The notes below the pieces were generated by a model, which was not told where the DNA came from, searched no databases, and was given only the letters and a program-made list of their open reading frames with translations. The position numbers and the translations under genes were made by a program. DNA of 64,000 bases from Escherichia phage vB_EcoM_CRJP21, in the sequence record OQ708376.1; one strand, 5' to 3'. Positions 59,773 through 63,424 of this stretch are shown here, in pieces. Within the stretch, counting starts at the first letter, position 1. Every line of letters begins with the position of its first letter.

Positions 59773-59802
59773 AAACTATTTTAAAAGTATTTGTAGAAAG
59801 TA

Positions 59803-59865
59803 CTTGCACCGTACTGATAAAAGCGTATAATGTTTTACATCGAGAGCGGGAACACTTCCCGCTAC
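59803..59865 (+). promoter_or_regulatory. early promoter plus 5'-UTR stem-loop module
   Basis: acttgcac...tataat then hairpin agcggga-acac-ttcccgct. Confidence 0.55.
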
Positions 59866-59886
59866 ACATTAAGAGAGATTAAAACG

Positions 59887-60249
59887 ATGGCGACTCAAAT
59901 CAATAAAATCATGCTTAACCTGGTAAACTTCCGCGATGAGATGAAAGGTCTTCCGGCTGAAACTGTAAAAATTCACATTGCAGCTTATCGGGAACTTATT
60001 GCAATGTTGCCGCTTAAGCGTGAACAATACGCCGCTACTTTGATGCTGGATTCAATGATCCATATAATGATCTCAAATGATTTGACGATGGTTTATCAGT
60101 ATATGGGCGAAAATTTCGCGGTGTGTAGTAAGCCAGTACCAGGGATGGCAACAACTGAGGAATTGCACGGCTTAAACTTAAAACAAGATGCATGGGATAA
60201 TATGCCTCGTTTCCTGGTATGGGCTGACAGTGGCAAAATTTACAAATAA
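59887..60249 (+). CDS. hypothetical protein (120 aa)
   Basis: start trimmed from track ORF 59830, which begins inside the -10 element. Confidence 0.6.
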   Translation: MATQINKIMLNLVNFRDEMKGLPAETVKIHIAAYRELIAMLPLKREQYAATLMLDSMIHIMISNDLTMVYQYMGENFAVCSKPVPGMATTEELHGLNLKQDAWDNMPRFLVWADSGKIYK

Positions 60250-60262
60250 GTTTAATAAAGTA

Positions 60263-60322
60263 CTTGCAAACTATGTTTAATGGCGTATAATGTTTTACAT
60301 CAGGTGGGGAATAGTTCCCCAC
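60263..60322 (+). promoter_or_regulatory. early promoter plus 5'-UTR stem-loop module
   Basis: acttgcaaactatgtttaatggcgtataat then hairpin gtgggga-atag-ttccccac. Confidence 0.55.
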
Positions 60323-60342
60323 TATATAAGAGGATTAAAAAA

Positions 60343-60582
60343 ATGGCTAAATCAAAAATGTTCTTAGGTCACAAAAACAAAACTCATTGGAATGTAAGCC
60401 TTTGGATTAATAACGATGAGGGATTGTATCGGTTGGCCCAGGACTTTATTAACGATAGCACTAATCGCAATGATGCGGCCCGTCATATGATGTTATTTTT
60501 AGAACAGACTGGACAAGATAAAACACCGGACGGATTCAAATATAGCACTACTGCGATCCGTGCGGCGATGGTTGGAATGTAA
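60343..60582 (+). CDS. hypothetical protein (79 aa)
   Basis: trimmed from track ORF 60280. Confidence 0.55.
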   Translation: MAKSKMFLGHKNKTHWNVSLWINNDEGLYRLAQDFINDSTNRNDAARHMMLFLEQTGQDKTPDGFKYSTTAIRAAMVGM

Positions 60583-60668
60583 TAGAATTTATTTAAAGTA
60601 CTATCATTTTTTTGCGATAGTACTTTATAATAGTGTTTTATTCATACACCAACGATAAGGGCAACAGC

Positions 60669-60935
60669 ATGAAAATTAAGTATTTTGCGACGCGTGAACA
60701 AGCTCGGATCGCCGCACGCCAGGACGGGGCAACGTTTAAAGATATGGGCGTACAATCGGAACGTGGTAAACGTTGGGCCATTGTAAAGCGTAGTACCGCC
60801 AGATCATTACAGTACTGGTTAGCGGCCTTAAAAAGTCCCGATAGTGTATCGCGTCGAGTGGTAGAAATAAAGCTCGACCGAAAGGGCAACCGCGTGACCG
60901 TGTACCGTACTAAAAAGATTGCAGTACTTGAATAA
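60669..60935 (+). CDS. hypothetical protein (88 aa)
   Basis: trimmed from track ORF 60633; upstream inverted repeat agtactatc...gatagtact and tataat. Confidence 0.55.
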   Translation: MKIKYFATREQARIAARQDGATFKDMGVQSERGKRWAIVKRSTARSLQYWLAALKSPDSVSRRVVEIKLDRKGNRVTVYRTKKIAVLE

Positions 60936-60942
60936 AAAGTAC

Positions 60943-61002
60943 TTGCAAACTATGTTTAATGGCGTATAATGTTTTACATCGAGAGCGGGAACTCTTCCCG
61001 CC
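60943..61002 (+). promoter_or_regulatory. early promoter plus 5'-UTR stem-loop module
   Basis: same ~45-bp promoter sequence as at 60263; hairpin agcggga-actc-ttcccgc. Confidence 0.55.
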
Positions 61003-61016
61003 TATAACCTGGAGTA

Positions 61017-61253
61017 ATGAAAATGACTAATATGTATATGACTGAAGTTAAAACCGTAAAAGATACTACCACGAATAAAACTACTTACTTACAGCGGATC
61101 TGTGGTGTATGGCAACGTATCAGCAAATCAAAGTACTTTAAATTAACATCATATGCAAACCGTTCGGATTCATTCAGTACTGAAATAAAAGGTAATAAAG
61201 TACACCAATACGGCACTTATTATTATTATAGCCTGGACGCGATTGCAGTATAA
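61017..61253 (+). CDS. hypothetical protein (78 aa)
   Basis: ORF with SD ggag. Confidence 0.55.
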   Translation: MKMTNMYMTEVKTVKDTTTNKTTYLQRICGVWQRISKSKYFKLTSYANRSDSFSTEIKGNKVHQYGTYYYYSLDAIAV

Positions 61254-61282
61254 GCAGTTTACAAATCTTTACAATTGCCGGT

Positions 61283-61312
61283 ATTGACTTATTTTGTCAG
61301 TACTGGCATAAT
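61283..61312 (+). promoter_or_regulatory. sigma70-like promoter with no ORF downstream
   Basis: ttgact...cataat; followed by repeat elements. Confidence 0.4.
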
Positions 61313-61500
61313 GTATTCATTGGCAGATAAGCCGTAGCCCATAGGGTGCGGGAGTGTATCTATAGAAAAATTAGTTTAGTATAGTTACAATTGTGCACCC
61401 GGTGGGTTAGCTGTTGTCATGGGGTATATTATACCAGTACTTGATAATGCTGTCAATACTTTTTTTTTACTATTCAGTACTGAAAACTATTTTTAAAAAG

Positions 61501-61575
61501 TACTTGCAAACTATGTTTAAAGGCGTATAATGTTTTACATCAGGACGGGGAACGAAATAAGTAACTTCCCGTTAA
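61501..61575 (+). promoter_or_regulatory. early promoter plus 5' stem-loop module with no ORF downstream (candidate sRNA)
   Basis: same promoter sequence; hairpin gacgggga...ttcccgt; next ATG only at 61682 after another promoter. Confidence 0.45.
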
Positions 61576-61621
61576 GTAGCCCAGGAGTAAGGCACACGAA
61601 AAACTCCCCTGATAAAATAGT

Positions 61622-61650: not shown

Positions 61651-61681
61651 CTTACATCAACTACTGAATGAGGGTTACAAA

Positions 61682-62293
61682 ATGAAAACTATCACTACTA
61701 CTACTTATGTTATGGCTTTTTCTGAATTGAACGCAGAACAACAAACGTCAGCTATCGAACTGGTTCGGGAACGTGAAAAAAACTCAAACGACAATTATTT
61801 TTCTGAAAGTGAAATTGAATACTATAAAGAAACAGTACTACCGGAATATGGCATTAATGACGCTGAAATACAATTCAGTGGTTTTTGGTCCCAGGGTGAC
61901 GGTGCATCAATCAGTACTGACCACGTTGACGCAGTGAAGTTTTTACGCAAGGTAAGAGCATTAACTAAGTATCGCTCAATCCGTCACTTGCTGAATGAAG
62001 ATGATTTGGCGATGAGTGTAAAACGTTCGCACTCCCACTACTCGCATGAGAATACTGTAAGCGGGTACATTGAATCGGCTTACACTGATTTAACCGCAAA
62101 ACAAGAAACGTTAGTTAATGAGCTTGAGGAACTACTCACTGAAACTATTCGTGAATTGTCCCGCAAGTTGTACCGTGATTTAGAGAATGCATATGAGGAT
62201 CAATTCACTACTGAAAACATTACGGCACTGATTGAGGGTAACGAATATCAATTCAATGTTATTGATGGCGTAGTAGAATCAATCGAATATTAA
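61682..62293 (+). CDS. hypothetical protein (203 aa)
   Basis: SD gaggg. Confidence 0.65.
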   Translation: MKTITTTTYVMAFSELNAEQQTSAIELVREREKNSNDNYFSESEIEYYKETVLPEYGINDAEIQFSGFWSQGDGASISTDHVDAVKFLRKVRALTKYRSIRHLLNEDDLAMSVKRSHSHYSHENTVSGYIESAYTDLTAKQETLVNELEELLTETIRELSRKLYRDLENAYEDQFTTENITALIEGNEYQFNVIDGVVESIEY

Positions 62294-62300
62294 TTTAAAA

Positions 62301-62366
62301 AGTACTTGCAAACTAAGTTTAAAAGCGTATAATACTTTATATCGAGAGCGGGAATAGTTCCCGCTA
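62301..62366 (+). promoter_or_regulatory. early promoter plus 5'-UTR stem-loop module
   Basis: acttgcaaactaagtttaaaagcgtataat; hairpin agcggga-atag-ttcccgct. Confidence 0.55.
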
Positions 62367-62385
62367 CTAATGAGGAATACTACAA

Positions 62386-62550
62386 ATGAATACTTTTACC
62401 TTCGCTCAATTGAACGCCCTGGATGTATTGTCTGATGCTTTGCGGGATGCAACTGAAAGCGGTTTATTTGACAATGTTGACATTCACCCTGATGTAATTA
62501 ATAATTTTTGTGATGCTATCGCAGAAGTACTGGAAGATCTAAAAAAATAA
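62386..62550 (+). CDS. hypothetical small protein (54 aa)
   Basis: hand-translated MNTFTFAQLNALDVL...; below track cutoff. Confidence 0.45.
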   Translation: MNTFTFAQLNALDVLSDALRDATESGLFDNVDIHPDVINNFCDAIAEVLEDLKK

Positions 62551-62557
62551 TAGAAAG

Positions 62558-62621
62558 TACTTGCAATTAGTTTTCAGTACTGTATAATGGTTTACATCAA
62601 AGGGAGAAATGGTTCTCCCTG
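62558..62621 (+). promoter_or_regulatory. early promoter plus 5'-UTR stem-loop module
   Basis: ttgcaa-N17-tataat; hairpin agggagaa-atgg-ttctccct. Confidence 0.55.
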
Positions 62622-62638
62622 GTAATGAGGAAAATACA

Positions 62639-62860
62639 ATGGCTAATATCACTACTCTTTCCCAACTGGAAGCACTGGTTAAATCTATGCGGGAACATGC
62701 TGACAAAATCGGCGTACAAGATCCAGCCGTTTGCTTCTGCGACGAATTGAATGATGATACCCTGGTAATAGCAGAAGTCCAGGACGTTTCTAACTATTCC
62801 TCGCGTTACACTGGCGGCGTAGCAAATAAAGGTGACTTCTGTTTATACCTTACAAAATAA
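62639..62860 (+). CDS. hypothetical protein (73 aa)
   Basis: trimmed from track ORF 62609. Confidence 0.55.
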   Translation: MANITTLSQLEALVKSMREHADKIGVQDPAVCFCDELNDDTLVIAEVQDVSNYSSRYTGGVANKGDFCLYLTK

Positions 62861-62862
62861 CA

Positions 62863-62896
62863 ACGCGGGGAGATAATAACTCCCCGTTACTTTTTC
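62863..62896 (+). terminator. intrinsic terminator
   Basis: hairpin cgggga-gataataa-ctccccg then ttactttttc. Confidence 0.55.
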
Positions 62897-63026
62897 AGTA
62901 CTGAATCATTTAATAGACGGATCTCGGCACCCGGTGGGTTAGTGACTGTTTCGTCTTGATGTAGTAATTATGCCAGTACTGGATGCACTTGTCAACAATT
63001 ATTTTCCAAATACTTTTTATTAAAAT

Positions 63027-63085
63027 ACTTGCAATTAGTTTTTAAACGCGTATAATGTTTTGCATAGGGGGAGCGGTTCCCCTGG
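63027..63085 (+). promoter_or_regulatory. early promoter plus 5'-UTR stem-loop module
   Basis: ttgcaa-N16-tataat; hairpin gggga-gcgg-ttcccc. Confidence 0.55.
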
Positions 63086-63103
63086 TAACTAAGGAATAAT
63101 AAA

Positions 63104-63340
63104 ATGCTTGAACAAATCAAATCAACGTCTTCGAATGTAACGGGAACGGTAGCACACTTTACTAGTGATGAATCGCGGGGCGTTCCCTATTGTGCTGTAC
63201 ATGTAAACACTGAGGGTAACTACTGGTTTACGGTTTACGGATCATATTCATTTGGACGGCCTGGACATCAAAAAATTCTGGATAAAGTACAACCAACGGG
63301 TAAAAATATCACTGCCGAAATGTTTTATAAAAAATCATAA
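63104..63340 (+). CDS. hypothetical protein (78 aa)
   Basis: SD taaggaa. Confidence 0.6.
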   Translation: MLEQIKSTSSNVTGTVAHFTSDESRGVPYCAVHVNTEGNYWFTVYGSYSFGRPGHQKILDKVQPTGKNITAEMFYKKS

Positions 63341-63344
63341 AGTA

Positions 63345-63404
63345 CTTGCAATTAGTTTTTAGTACTGTATAATATTTTACATCGCAAGGGGAAACGGTTT
63401 CCCC
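63345..63404 (+). promoter_or_regulatory. early promoter plus 5'-UTR stem-loop module
   Basis: ttgcaa...tataat; hairpin ggggaaa-cgg-tttcccc. Confidence 0.55.
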
Positions 63405-63424
63405 TGGTAACTAAGGATAATCAA

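What the first reader, a model, noticed from the sequence alone, without database searches (positions are those of the whole stretch)
59800..63410. Reiterated promoter plus 5'-UTR hairpin module with compensatory base changes
At least eight genes in this segment are each preceded by (A)GTACTTGCAA-N-TATAAT followed 10-12 nt later by a stem-loop and then the SD. The stems differ in sequence but keep pairing: agcggga/tcccgct, gtgggga/tccccac, acgggga/ttcccgt, agggagaa/ttctccct, gggga/tcccc and ggggaaa/tttcccc. That covariation argues for selection on RNA structure at the extreme 5' end of the mRNAs, for example stabilisation against 5'-end-dependent decay, an antitermination or pause signal, or a binding site for a phage RNA-binding protein.
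Basis: seen in the sequence. Interest (0 to 1): 0.65.

Follow-up and report, generated by a model that had tools for sequence, protein, structure and literature searches.

The report
Phage early promoter plus leader-hairpin cassettes
A giant E. coli phage places the same control unit (a strong host-type promoter, a small RNA hairpin and a ribosome-binding site) in front of dozens of small early genes, and these units also mark where genes are swapped between related phages; this is a new variant of a known phage design, not a new kind of element.

Summary
Eight + strand copies of AAAGTACTTGCA-N17-TATAAT lie at 59797-63427 (0.1 expected). Each is followed 8-14 nt later by a 7-11 bp G/C-rich hairpin, and seven of them by an SD and ATG. 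The window is an Asteriusvirus-type jumbo coliphage (98.8% identical to fEgEco12), and the segment is the start of its long terminal repeat.

The module is a family: I found 88 copies in nine phages, including RaK2-like phages of Klebsiella, Erwinia, Salmonella and Serratia, and an rV5-like coliphage. Stems differ widely but keep pairing (covariation 0.635 vs 0.247 in shuffles). Mismatches are G.U-type 20:2 over A.C-type, so the sense strand folds. None has a T-run. Homology breakpoints between relatives fall at the modules, and orthologous genes carry different hairpin variants.

Best reading: a variant of the PeSL (promoter-early stem-loop) cassettes of T4-type phages, with the stem-loop moved into the 5' leader. 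Its role there is inferred. I favour generic message stabilisation and RBS insulation. However, the hairpin is predicted to sit 1-7 nt from the 5' end, too far in most copies for classical 5'-end protection. No Rfam family matches and no paper found describes it.

The parts
59797..59889 (+). Module m1: A-rich upstream, -35 TTGCAC 59804-59809, -10 TATAAT 59826-59831, leader GTTTTACATCGAG, hairpin 59845-59863 (AGCGGGAA-CAC-TTCCCGCT), SD AAGAGAG, ATG 59887 (120-aa ORFan)
   Evidence: (-12.5 kcal/mol)
60257..60345 (+). Module m2: -35 TTGCAA 60264-60269, -10 60286-60291, hairpin 60303-60323 (GGTGGGGAA-TAG-TTCCCCACT), ATG 60343 (79 aa, DUF7249)
   Evidence: (-14.2). The module is duplicated around an inserted gene in PBECO4, A4 and SD-1_S14
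60936..61025 (+). Module m3: -35 60943-60948, -10 60965-60970, hairpin 60985-61001 (GCGGGAA-CTC-TTCCCGC), SD GGAG, ATG 61023 (alternative 61017)
   Evidence: -12.0. In A4 and phAPEC6 the orthologous gene carries the m2-type hairpin instead
61497..61573 (+). Module m4: -35 61504-61509, -10 61526-61531, hairpin 61544-61573 (GACGGGGA, 14-nt loop, TTCCCGTT; two G.U pairs). Not followed directly by a gene
   Evidence: The unit is repeated at L001 13614 and in W70
61622..61684 (+). Second, hairpin-less consensus promoter (TTGACA-16-TATAAT 61622-61649) with a short leader ACTTACATCAAC...GAGGG and ATG 61682 (203 aa). Example of the hairpin-less promoter class that coexists with the modules
62298..62388 (+). 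Module m5: -35 62306-62311, -10 62328-62333, hairpin 62347-62365 (AGCGGGAA-TAG-TTCCCGCT), ATG 62386 (54-aa ORFan, found only in this phage and fEgEco12 among those compared)
   Evidence: -13.2. Homology with nine relatives ends at 62352-62376, in or just after this hairpin
62554..62641 (+). Module m6: -35 62561-62566, -10 62583-62588, hairpin 62601-62620 (AGGGAGAA-ATGG-TTCTCCCT), ATG 62639
   Evidence: -11.8. Homology with relatives resumes at 62542-62554, the upstream edge of this module
63022..63106 (+). Module m7: -35 63029-63034, -10 63051-63056, hairpin 63065-63084 (TAGGGGGA-GCGG-TTCCCCTG), ATG 63104
   Evidence: -11.4. The orthologous gene carries an m1-type hairpin in W70 and another variant in 121Q
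63339..63427 (+). Module m8: -35 63346-63351, -10 63368-63373, hairpin core 63387-63405 (AGGGGAAA-CGG-TTTCCCCT; extended 63384-63408), ATG 63425 (99 aa, annotated 'spackle' in fEgEco12)
   Evidence: -11.9. Orthologues show an A-U to G-C compensatory change plus an A-U to G.U change
33333..33416 (+). Ninth module, outside the finding's coordinates: -35 TTGACA 33339-33344, -10 33361-33366, hairpin 33376-33396 (GGGGATGA-ACTTC-TCATCCCT), ATG 33414 (184 aa)

Best explanation
Each unit is a self-contained early-expression cassette of a RaK2/Asteriusvirus-type jumbo phage. It consists of an A/T-rich upstream region, a strong sigma-70 promoter (AAAGTACTTGCA-N17-TATAAT), a conserved start region (GTTTTACAT), a stable G-rich/C,U-rich hairpin in the 5' leader, then SD and ATG 16-24 nt after the stem. 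Host RNA polymerase would fire these promoters as soon as the terminal-repeat end of the genome enters the cell (inferred).

The hairpin is selected as a structure of the sense-strand RNA, not as a sequence (shown). Its most likely job is generic (inferred): it gives each short early message a stable structured end and keeps the adjacent SD and AUG single-stranded whatever gene or upstream sequence the cassette is joined to. That would raise message lifetime and make expression independent of context.

Because the same roughly 90-bp unit is repeated 20-35 times per genome, it also serves as the homology at which genes are inserted, deleted and exchanged within and between phages (shown as a pattern; the mechanism is inferred). 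In kind it is a PeSL-type mobile regulatory cassette, differing in that the stem-loop sits inside the transcript and has no terminator anatomy.
For: Promoter:
- Eight exact matches against 0.1 expected. Ten of 12 consensus positions and a 16-nt hexamer spacer.

Hairpin linked to promoter:
- 8/8 in the window and 16/18, 16/18, 3/3 and 5/7 in four relatives, against about 7% background.
- A hairpin-only covariance model finds 72 + strand hits, and 66 have a strict promoter within 52 nt upstream.

Structure under selection:
- 57 distinct hairpins and 46 distinct stems.
- Covariation 0.635 against 0.247 in shuffles and at most 0.29 in slid controls.
- Stems are completely different in RaK2 (GGGGATACA/TGTATCCCT) and BF (GGGTAAGC/GCTTACCC) at the same position.
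- Compensatory and G.U changes occur between orthologues.

Sense-strand RNA:
- G.U-type against A.C-type mismatches 20:2.
- 85 of 89 downstream hairpins start 7-14 nt after the -10.

Not a terminator:
- 0 of 88 have 5 or more T in the 8 nt after the stem, and a terminator there would abort the module's own transcript.
- True terminators in the same genome carry T-runs (62865-62887; composite terminator-promoters).

Leader geometry:
- The leader folds to the hairpin alone, leaving SD and AUG free. Stem to ATG is 16-24 nt.

Cassette behaviour:
- 8 of 10 distinct homology breakpoints against nine relatives lie in modules, which cover 16.5% of the region.
- At one slot all relatives share the promoter and diverge from the hairpin onward.
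- Cassettes are shared at 80-88% identity, in shuffled order, with a Vequintavirinae phage.
- Downstream genes are small ORFans.
- The region lies in the 21.5-kb direct terminal repeat annotated in vB_Ec-M-J.

Precedents:
- PeSLs (PMC2839356, PMC4122927).
- 5'-terminal stem-loops block RppH (PMC8833179).
Against: - No transcription start site, half-life or expression data exist. The stabiliser/insulator role is inference only.
- With the predicted start at the A of CAT, 81 of 88 modules leave 3 or more unpaired 5' nucleotides. That is enough for RppH and RNase E (PMC8833179), and RNase E bypasses simple stem-loops (PMC9943677).
- Many early promoters in the same phages do without a hairpin, so it is not essential for early expression.
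- A family hairpin persists without a promoter in 121Q and W70. In RB49 the equivalent hairpin is not in its own transcript at all. The selected role may therefore act on read-through RNA or on DNA rather than at a primary 5' end.
- The covariation set was chosen as sequences that form hairpins, and the paralogues are related by descent and gene conversion, so the shuffle statistics overstate independence.
- Breakpoints at modules are nearly equivalent to breakpoints in intergenic DNA, which whole-gene exchange would give anyway.
Confidence: 0.55

Rival explanations
1. Attenuator or terminator, the function proposed and measured for PeSL stem-loops in RB49/phi1. The hairpin would stop or damp transcription arriving from upstream cassettes so that expression does not accumulate along the array.
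For: - An RB49 PeSL stem-loop reduced downstream lacZ like a strong terminator (PMC2839356).
- The hairpins resemble this genome's real terminator stems.
- ARNOLD called one module hairpin in G17 a terminator (L002 22966-22985).
- Hairpins persist between genes without a promoter in 121Q and W70.
Against: - 0 of 88 have a T-run.
- The hairpin lies between its own promoter and its own gene, so efficient termination would silence that gene.
- Where the genome needs termination it uses hairpin plus T-run, including eight composite GGTTGAC-TTCG-GTCAGCC-TTTTT terminator-promoters at 24.5-38.4 kb.
Confidence: 0.07
2. DNA-level element. The inverted repeat folds in single-stranded sense DNA during replication or recombination and is the actual crossover or template-switch site that drives cassette exchange. 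Any RNA hairpin is a by-product.
For: - Breakpoints flank the hairpin on both sides.
- The hairpin travels with the downstream gene while the promoter stays with the slot.
- The m1 loop is CAC here and GTG in PBECO4 and SD-1_S14, an exact loop inversion typical of palindrome template switching.
- RB49 minicircle junctions mapped to the PeSL loop (PMC2839356).
- G.T mismatches are also tolerated in folded DNA.
Against: - Arms of 7-10 bp are short for extrusion.
- A recombination signal has no need for a fixed position just after the start site and 16-24 nt before the ATG.
- Ordinary homologous recombination between 90-bp repeats explains the breakpoints.
- No candidate recombinase was linked to the modules.
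Confidence: 0.12
3. Recognition site in the RNA for a phage or host protein: for example an antitermination loader (nut/put-like), a translational repressor that shuts off early genes, or a processing endonuclease.
For: - The position in every early leader is conserved.
- The purine/pyrimidine asymmetry is strict: the 5' arm is 89% purine and the 3' arm 12%.
- A G-run at the stem base is kept even where the rest of the stem differs.
Against: - Loops vary freely in sequence and in length, 3-6 nt and 14 nt in five copies.
- Stem sequences are unrelated between genera.
- There is no boxA-like or other conserved flanking motif in the aligned leaders.
- Stems are too short for RNase III.
- No Rfam family matches.
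Confidence: 0.12
4. Promoter-proximal transcription aid. The purine-rich initial transcript and its immediate folding would favour promoter escape and block backtracking or R-loops at very strong, closely spaced promoters.
For: - The hairpin starts within about 7 nt of the predicted start, and the G-rich arm comes first.
- The start region GTTTTACAT(C/A)GAGA is conserved.
- The hairpin is tightly coupled to promoters.
Against: - Hairpin-less promoters with an equally good consensus coexist.
- Hairpins survive without promoters in 121Q and W70.
- There is no direct evidence, and I did not check precedent in the literature.
Confidence: 0.08
5. Double-stranded palindromic operator for a dimeric DNA-binding repressor, overlapping the start of transcription.
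For: - The inverted repeat GGGAA-N-TTCCC lies just downstream of the -10, in an operator-like position.
Against: - The spacing between the arms varies from 3 to 14 nt, and the half-site sequences differ completely between relatives.
- The outer positions covary.
- The G.U over A.C bias has no meaning for duplex DNA.
Confidence: 0.02

Closest known systems
PeSL (promoter-early stem-loop) cassettes of T4-type phages RB49/phi1, T4/PST and KVP40/nt-1 (Arbiol et al. 2010, PMC2839356; Comeau et al. 2014, PMC4122927)
   Same: - A reiterated unit of about 70-100 bp: A/T-rich upstream region, near-consensus sigma-70 early promoter, G-tract/C-tract stem-loop with G.T pairs, then SD and ATG.
- It lies between small ORFans in plastic early regions.
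- Indels and replacements between close relatives are bounded by the units.
- The hairpin composition is nearly the same: RB49 AGGGGAGGATAACTCCCCT and GCGGGGAGAAATCCCCGC.
   Different: - In RB49 the stem-loop sits in the promoter spacer (-24 to -6 in 5 of the 5 strong cases I scanned). The papers describe it upstream of or overlapping the promoter, or just before the start, never inside the transcript.
- Here most module hairpins are transcribed: 85 of 89 downstream hairpins in the unbiased scan start 7-14 nt after the -10. None of 88 has a T-run, so it cannot be the terminator the PeSL papers describe.
- The host phages are RaK2-like jumbo phages, not Straboviridae.
- The same window also holds spacer-type terminator-promoter composites, which are closer to classical PeSLs.
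5'-terminal stabilising stem-loops (E. coli ompA and papA leaders; phage T7 gene 10 leader)
   Same: - A stable hairpin close to the 5' end of a highly expressed message, followed by an unstructured SD region.
- The T7 phi10 leader GGGAGACCACAACGGTTTCCC shares AACGGTTTCCC with m8, and its ACAAC loop with the Erwinia and Salmonella phage modules.
   Different: - Those hairpins start within 0-2 nt of the 5' end. Here the predicted unpaired leader is 1-7 nt, mostly 3-6.
- No stability data exist.
- The T7 resemblance may be chance or convergence. The stabilising role of the T7 and ompA hairpins is from my own knowledge and from reference lists (PMC3997798), not tested here.
Intrinsic (Rho-independent) terminators
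   Same: - A G/C-rich 7-10 bp stem with a 3-5 nt loop, and the same stem style as this genome's real terminators (62865-62887).
   Different: - There is no U-tract (0 of 88), and the hairpin lies downstream of its own promoter.
Lambdoid nut (boxA/boxB) and HK022 put leader RNAs
   Same: - An RNA hairpin placed in the leader just downstream of an early promoter.
   Different: - There is no conserved loop, no boxA-like motif, and a single short stem rather than put's two-stem fold.
- The element is present before every gene rather than once per operon.
- No Rfam match.
Integron gene cassettes and their attC sites; phage 'morons'
   Same: - Arrays of small exchangeable genes, each tied to an imperfect palindrome that is conserved in structure rather than sequence.
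- Like a moron, each gene brings its own promoter.
   Different: - The palindrome is upstream of the gene and transcribed.
- No integrase, and no extrahelical-base signature, was examined.
- Exchange is adequately explained by homologous recombination.

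Membership tests
PeSL cassettes (PMC2839356, PMC4122927) | [quoted passage not shown] | tested here: met
   AAAGTACTTGCA-N17-TATAAT, with A/T-rich flanks read.
PeSL cassettes (PMC2839356, PMC4122927) | Adjacent stable stem-loop, often a G-tract followed by a C-tract, with G.T pairs | tested here: met
PeSL cassettes (PMC2839356, PMC4122927) | SD and start codon of the downstream gene at the 3' end of the unit | tested here: met
   stem end to ATG is 16-24 nt in 82 of 88 modules. In the window this holds for 7 of 8 (m4 is the exception).
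PeSL cassettes (PMC2839356, PMC4122927) | Concentrated in plastic regions among small ORFans | tested here: met
   The region lies inside the direct terminal repeat.
PeSL cassettes (PMC2839356, PMC4122927) | Insertions, deletions and replacements between close relatives are bounded by the units | tested here: met
   (8 of 10 breakpoint clusters in modules; module duplication around an insertion).
PeSL cassettes (PMC2839356, PMC4122927) | Stem-loop placed upstream of the promoter, overlapping it, or just before the start site (five subclasses) | tested here: not met
   module hairpins start 7-14 nt after the -10, inside the transcript. In RB49, scanned the same way, the hairpin is in the spacer.
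PeSL cassettes (PMC2839356, PMC4122927) | Stem-loop acts as a terminator or attenuator of upstream transcription | not testable with these tools
   The function needs an experiment. The anatomy argues against it: 0 of 88 have a T-run.
PeSL cassettes (PMC2839356, PMC4122927) | Recombination between neighbouring units releases gene minicircles | not testable with these tools
   Needs inverse PCR on infected cells.
5'-terminal stabilising stem-loop (ompA / T7 gene 10 type) | Hairpin begins within about 0-2 nt of the 5' end, so that RppH and RNase E cannot engage | tested here: inconclusive
   The start site is unmapped. With the start predicted at the A of CAT, 7 of 88 modules leave 2 or fewer unpaired nucleotides and 81 of 88 leave 3-7. 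The requirement is taken from PMC8833179.
5'-terminal stabilising stem-loop (ompA / T7 gene 10 type) | Removing the stem shortens mRNA half-life | not testable with these tools
   Needs a rifampicin chase of wild-type, disrupted and compensatory constructs.
Intrinsic terminator | G/C-rich hairpin immediately followed by a U-tract | tested here: not met
   (0 of 88 with 5 or more T in 8 nt). In one search only 62865-62887 in this segment qualifies, and it is not a module.
nut / put antitermination leader RNA | Conserved boxA/boxB sequence, or the two-stem put fold | tested here: not met
   The leaders show no conserved loop or flanking motif. No Rfam hit at E<=1.
Any Rfam family | Covariance-model match | tested here: not met
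   no match in 58000-64000 on either strand at E<=1.

The most novel reading that the evidence does not exclude
The hairpin may be the working site of a structure-directed cassette-exchange process, comparable in logic to integron attC sites. On this reading it folds in single-stranded sense DNA, it is where strands switch or are cut, and it carries 'its' gene from slot to slot and between unrelated phage lineages (Asteriusvirus and rV5-like phages). That would account for four observations: junctions on both sides of the hairpin, the hairpin staying with the gene while the promoter stays with the slot, the exact loop inversion in m1, and survival of hairpins that have lost their promoter.
Probability: 0.1. 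Interest if true: 0.8.

Novelty: new variant of a known kind. Interest (0 to 1): 0.42.

Why it matters
- These cassettes head most genes in the ~21.5 kb terminal repeat of a 350-kb phage. In the relatives examined, that part of the genome is made up almost entirely of small genes of unknown function.
- A defined, portable promoter-leader unit tells annotators where early transcripts start. It explains why gene content there differs between near-identical phages. It also gives a compact, naturally insulated expression part for phage engineering.
- The family has strong covariation, is absent from Rfam, and has two contrasting architectures in one genome: a leader hairpin without a T-run, and a spacer hairpin with one. 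This makes the open question left by the PeSL papers directly testable: what does the stem-loop do (RNA stability, termination or recombination)?

Tried and rejected
- MAFFT alignments of whole modules were not in structural register, so I did not use them for pair counts.
- The covariance-model alignment A4 mixed both strands of the palindromes, so I used it only to locate hits. Pair counts were made on a loop-anchored alignment of the real arms with a TTTT placeholder for the loop.
- Energy z-scores of single leaders are modest (-1.3 to -3.3), and 48-nt fold energies barely separate from shuffles. Shuffled G-runs and C-runs pair anyway, so I relied on position-specific hairpin frequency instead.
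- Anti-SD switch idea (the 3' arm would sequester the SD if the 5' arm were removed): truncated leaders fold no better than shuffles (-3.36 against -3.76 kcal/mol). Rejected.
- Rfam at E<=1 gave nothing.
- Literature searches on PBECO4/121Q, RaK2, CBB, PA5oct, rV5 and jumbo-phage transcriptomes found promoter lists but no description of the leader hairpin.
- Considered and set aside: a duplex operator (variable arm spacing, G.U bias), an RNase III site (stems too short), an intrinsic terminator on either strand (no T-run on either side), and cruciform extrusion (arms too short).
- I did not search for RegB-like or other candidate RNA-binding proteins elsewhere in the genome.

Full report
**What the window is.** Bases 59700-63500 are 98.8% identical to the first 5.4 kb of Escherichia phage fEgEco12 and 95-99% identical to other Asteriusvirus jumbo phages (G17, PBECO4, SP27, slurp01). 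Window position 58150 corresponds to nucleotide 1 of fEgEco12. In vB_Ec-M-J the same sequence lies in an annotated 21.5-kb direct terminal repeat. The finding therefore covers the first genes at one end of a roughly 350-kb genome. The genes are small and of unknown function (PHROGs families without function, one DUF7249).

**The observation.**
- TACTTGCA-N17-TATAAT occurs eight times, all on the + strand between 59801 and 63373, against 0.1 expected. The repeat finder gives the same eight-copy family.
- Each copy has a -35 TTGCA(A/C), a 16-nt hexamer spacer, a perfect -10, and a conserved stretch GTTTTACAT(C/A).
- After 8-14 nt comes a hairpin of 7-11 pairs with a loop of 3-4 nt (14 nt in m4).
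- All eight promoters have such a hairpin, against 7.6% of random 50-mers from the window.
- Folded from the predicted start, each leader's minimum-energy structure is the hairpin alone (-11.4 to -14.2 kcal/mol), with SD and AUG open.
- Seven modules are followed by SD and ATG 16-22 nt after the stem. m4 is followed by a second hairpin and a hairpin-less TTGACA-16-TATAAT promoter before the 203-aa gene.
- A ninth module lies at 33333-33416.

**A clade-wide family.**
- A simple regular-expression scan finds 19 modules in each of two relatives' early regions.
- With a promoter scan and a hairpin caller I collected 88 modules in nine phages: this window, fEgEco12, G17, Klebsiella RaK2, Erwinia Hallingskeid, Salmonella Munch, Serratia BF and the rV5-like coliphage W70. 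The ninth phage scanned, Yersinia fHe-Yen9-04, has the promoters but mostly not the hairpin.
- Geometry is tight: the stem starts 8-14 nt after the -10 (modes 12 and 10), the stem is 7-12 bp, the loop is 3-6 nt, and stem end to ATG is 16-24 nt.
- Hairpin-less promoters of equal quality coexist with the modules.

**Is the pairing selected, and in which molecule?**
- There are 57 distinct hairpins and 46 distinct stems.
- On a loop-anchored alignment of 44 distinct arm pairs, all ten pairs show changes on both sides. The covariation score is 0.635, against 0.247+-0.019 in column shuffles (0 of 500 reach it) and at most 0.29 when partners are slid.
- Stems in RaK2 (GGGGATACA/TGTATCCCT, GGGAATGAA/TTCATTCCC) and BF (GGGTAAGC/GCTTACCC, GACAGGAGA/TCTCTTGTC) share almost nothing with those here, yet sit at the same place.
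- Between orthologous m8 modules there is one A-U to G-C double change and one A-U to G.U change.
- Caveat: the sequences were chosen because they fold, and the paralogues are not independent. The cleaner statistic is the promoter-ascertained hairpin frequency.
- With a hairpin caller that treats all non-Watson-Crick pairs alike, internal mismatches are 20 G.U-type against 2 A.C-type (p=1.2e-4). The 5' arm is 89% purine. A duplex operator or symmetric cruciform predicts no such bias, so the sense strand is what folds.
- In an unbiased scan from -45 to +55, 85 of 89 downstream hairpins start 7-14 nt after the -10, within the transcribed region.
- A covariance model built from the hairpin alone finds 72 + strand hits in about 330 kb, and 66 have a strict promoter within 52 nt upstream. 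Two of the six exceptions are true terminators with T-runs.

**What it is not.**
- None of the 88 hairpins is followed by a T-run, and a terminator there would abort the module's own message.
- The genome uses hairpin plus T-run where it terminates: 62865-62887, and eight composite GGTTGAC-TTCG-GTCAGCC-TTTTT-GCTATAAT terminator-promoters at 24.5-38.4 kb.
- Arm spacing of 3-14 nt and unrelated half-sites exclude a dimeric operator.
- Loops and flanks carry no conserved motif, so a sequence-specific RNA-binding site or a nut/put-type element is unlikely.
- Rfam has no match.
- An anti-SD switch is not supported.

**Cassette behaviour.**
- Against nine Asteriusvirus relatives, homology breaks at ten distinct places between 59700 and 63500. 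Eight of them lie in modules, which cover 16.5% of that region.
- The slot between m5 and m6 holds a 54-aa gene here, and one to four different genes in other phages. Homology ends at 62352-62376 (the m5 hairpin) and resumes at 62542-62554 (the edge of m6).
- At that slot most relatives share the promoter, and all diverge from the hairpin onward. G17 and SP27 share the hairpin but not the gene, so junctions occur on both sides of the hairpin.
- PBECO4, A4 and SD-1_S14 have an extra gene flanked by two copies of m2.
- Orthologous genes carry different hairpin variants in different phages. The m1 loop is CAC here and GTG in PBECO4 and SD-1_S14, an exact loop inversion.
- W70, a Vequintavirinae phage, shares several cassettes at 80-88% identity in a different order.
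- Since modules fill most intergenic space, part of this pattern would follow from whole-gene exchange alone.

**Comparison with what is known.** The nearest published concept is the PeSL of T4-type phages: a reiterated early promoter plus G/C stem-loop, in plastic regions, mediating gene shuffling (PMC2839356, PMC4122927).
- I scanned 50 kb of RB49 in the same way. Its hairpins (for example AGGGGATCGGTGATCCCCT) are of the same style but lie in the promoter spacer, -24 to -6. This agrees with the papers, which place them upstream of or overlapping the promoter, or just before the start, and show terminator activity.
- Here the stem-loop is in the leader and lacks terminator anatomy. All other PeSL features that can be tested by sequence are met.
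- The second analogue is the 5'-terminal stabilising stem-loop. The T7 gene 10 leader GGGAGACCACAACGGTTTCCC even shares AACGGTTTCCC with m8.
- Against that analogy: if transcription starts at the A of CAT (my prediction from promoter geometry), 81 of 88 modules leave 3-7 unpaired nucleotides. RppH and RNase E need only two or three (PMC8833179), and RNase E steps over orthogonal stem-loops (PMC9943677).

**Mechanism and confidence.**
- Shown: a reiterated sigma-70 promoter motif; a physically linked hairpin under selection for pairing of the sense strand; no terminator anatomy; a free SD; recombination junctions at the units.
- Inferred: the promoters fire early; the hairpin acts in the RNA as a generic end or boundary structure that stabilises and insulates short early messages; the repeats drive exchange by homologous recombination.
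- I put about 0.85 on the identity of the element and about 0.4 on the stabiliser/insulator role, giving 0.55 overall.
- Rivals are a DNA-level crossover site (0.12), a protein recognition site (0.12), a promoter-escape aid (0.08), an attenuator (0.07) and an operator (0.02).

**Novelty.** No paper in the held library describes this leader hairpin in the RaK2/Asteriusvirus clade, and it is not in Rfam. It is a new variant of a known kind, of moderate interest.

Noticed in passing
window + strand 59340-59425 and 61284-61365; - strand units read on + as CACCCGGTGGG at 59241, 61396, 62928 and 63987 (promoters 59182->59154, 61456->61428, 62995->62967): A multi-copy small-RNA-like unit sits between the early cassettes. 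It consists of its own sigma-70 promoter, about 35 nt containing a short hairpin, then the conserved motif CCCAC(A/C)GGGTGCGG(A/G)(A/G)GTGTATC. It often occurs as convergent pairs about 70-100 nt apart. More than 20 copies on both strands occur in RaK2, Hallingskeid, Munch, fHe-Yen9-04 and BF. No Rfam match.
   Followed up: partly
window 24523-24545, 27766, 27949, 29526, 30611, 35106, 36388 and 38346 (+ strand): Eight composite terminator-promoters, GGTTGAC-TTCG-GTCAGCC(C)-TTTTT-GCTATAAT. The -35 hexamer is part of the terminator stem and the T-run is the promoter spacer. They lie directly after stop codons. This is the classical PeSL-like architecture in the same genome (0 expected).
   Followed up: partly
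whole window, 54 sites: The palindrome CAGTACTG occurs 54 times against 0.93 expected. AGTACT flanks the -35 and fills the spacer of many promoters, and sometimes forms inverted repeats CAGTACTAT...ATAGTACTG around the -35. Possibly a protein-binding or modification motif.
   Followed up: partly
window 58928-59055 and 59676-59772: An 8-bp-periodic array (xxxxGGCT repeated) and a 53-bp tandem direct repeat lie in ORF-free DNA just inside the start of the terminal repeat (families D4 and D17). They could relate to the genome end or to packaging.
   Followed up: no
window 59853-59855 vs PBECO4 (L010) and SD-1_S14 (L016): The m1 hairpin loop is CAC here and GTG in two relatives, with identical stems. 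This is an exact inversion of the loop, as expected from template switching at a palindrome.
   Followed up: no
L017 (121Q) about 5115-5170; L007 (W70) 16467-16490: Family hairpins are retained directly after a stop codon with no promoter in front. The hairpin can therefore outlive its promoter.
   Followed up: no
L007 (Escherichia phage W70, Vequintavirinae) 14850-19700: An unrelated 137-kb rV5-like phage shares several of these small genes with their modules at 80-88% identity, in a different order. This indicates exchange of cassettes between phage lineages.
   Followed up: partly
L009 (T7 22904-22966) vs window 63392-63403: The T7 phi10 leader hairpin GGGAGACCACAACGGTTTCCC shares an 11-nt identity (AACGGTTTCCC) with m8, and its ACAAC loop with the Erwinia and Salmonella phage modules. 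This may be convergence or chance.
   Followed up: no
window 43936-53733 (- strand) and 141-3808 (+ strand): There is an array of eight paralogous genes of 358-433 aa, annotated in relatives as RCC1-like 'DNA condensation' proteins, and a cluster of seven tRNA genes.
   Followed up: no
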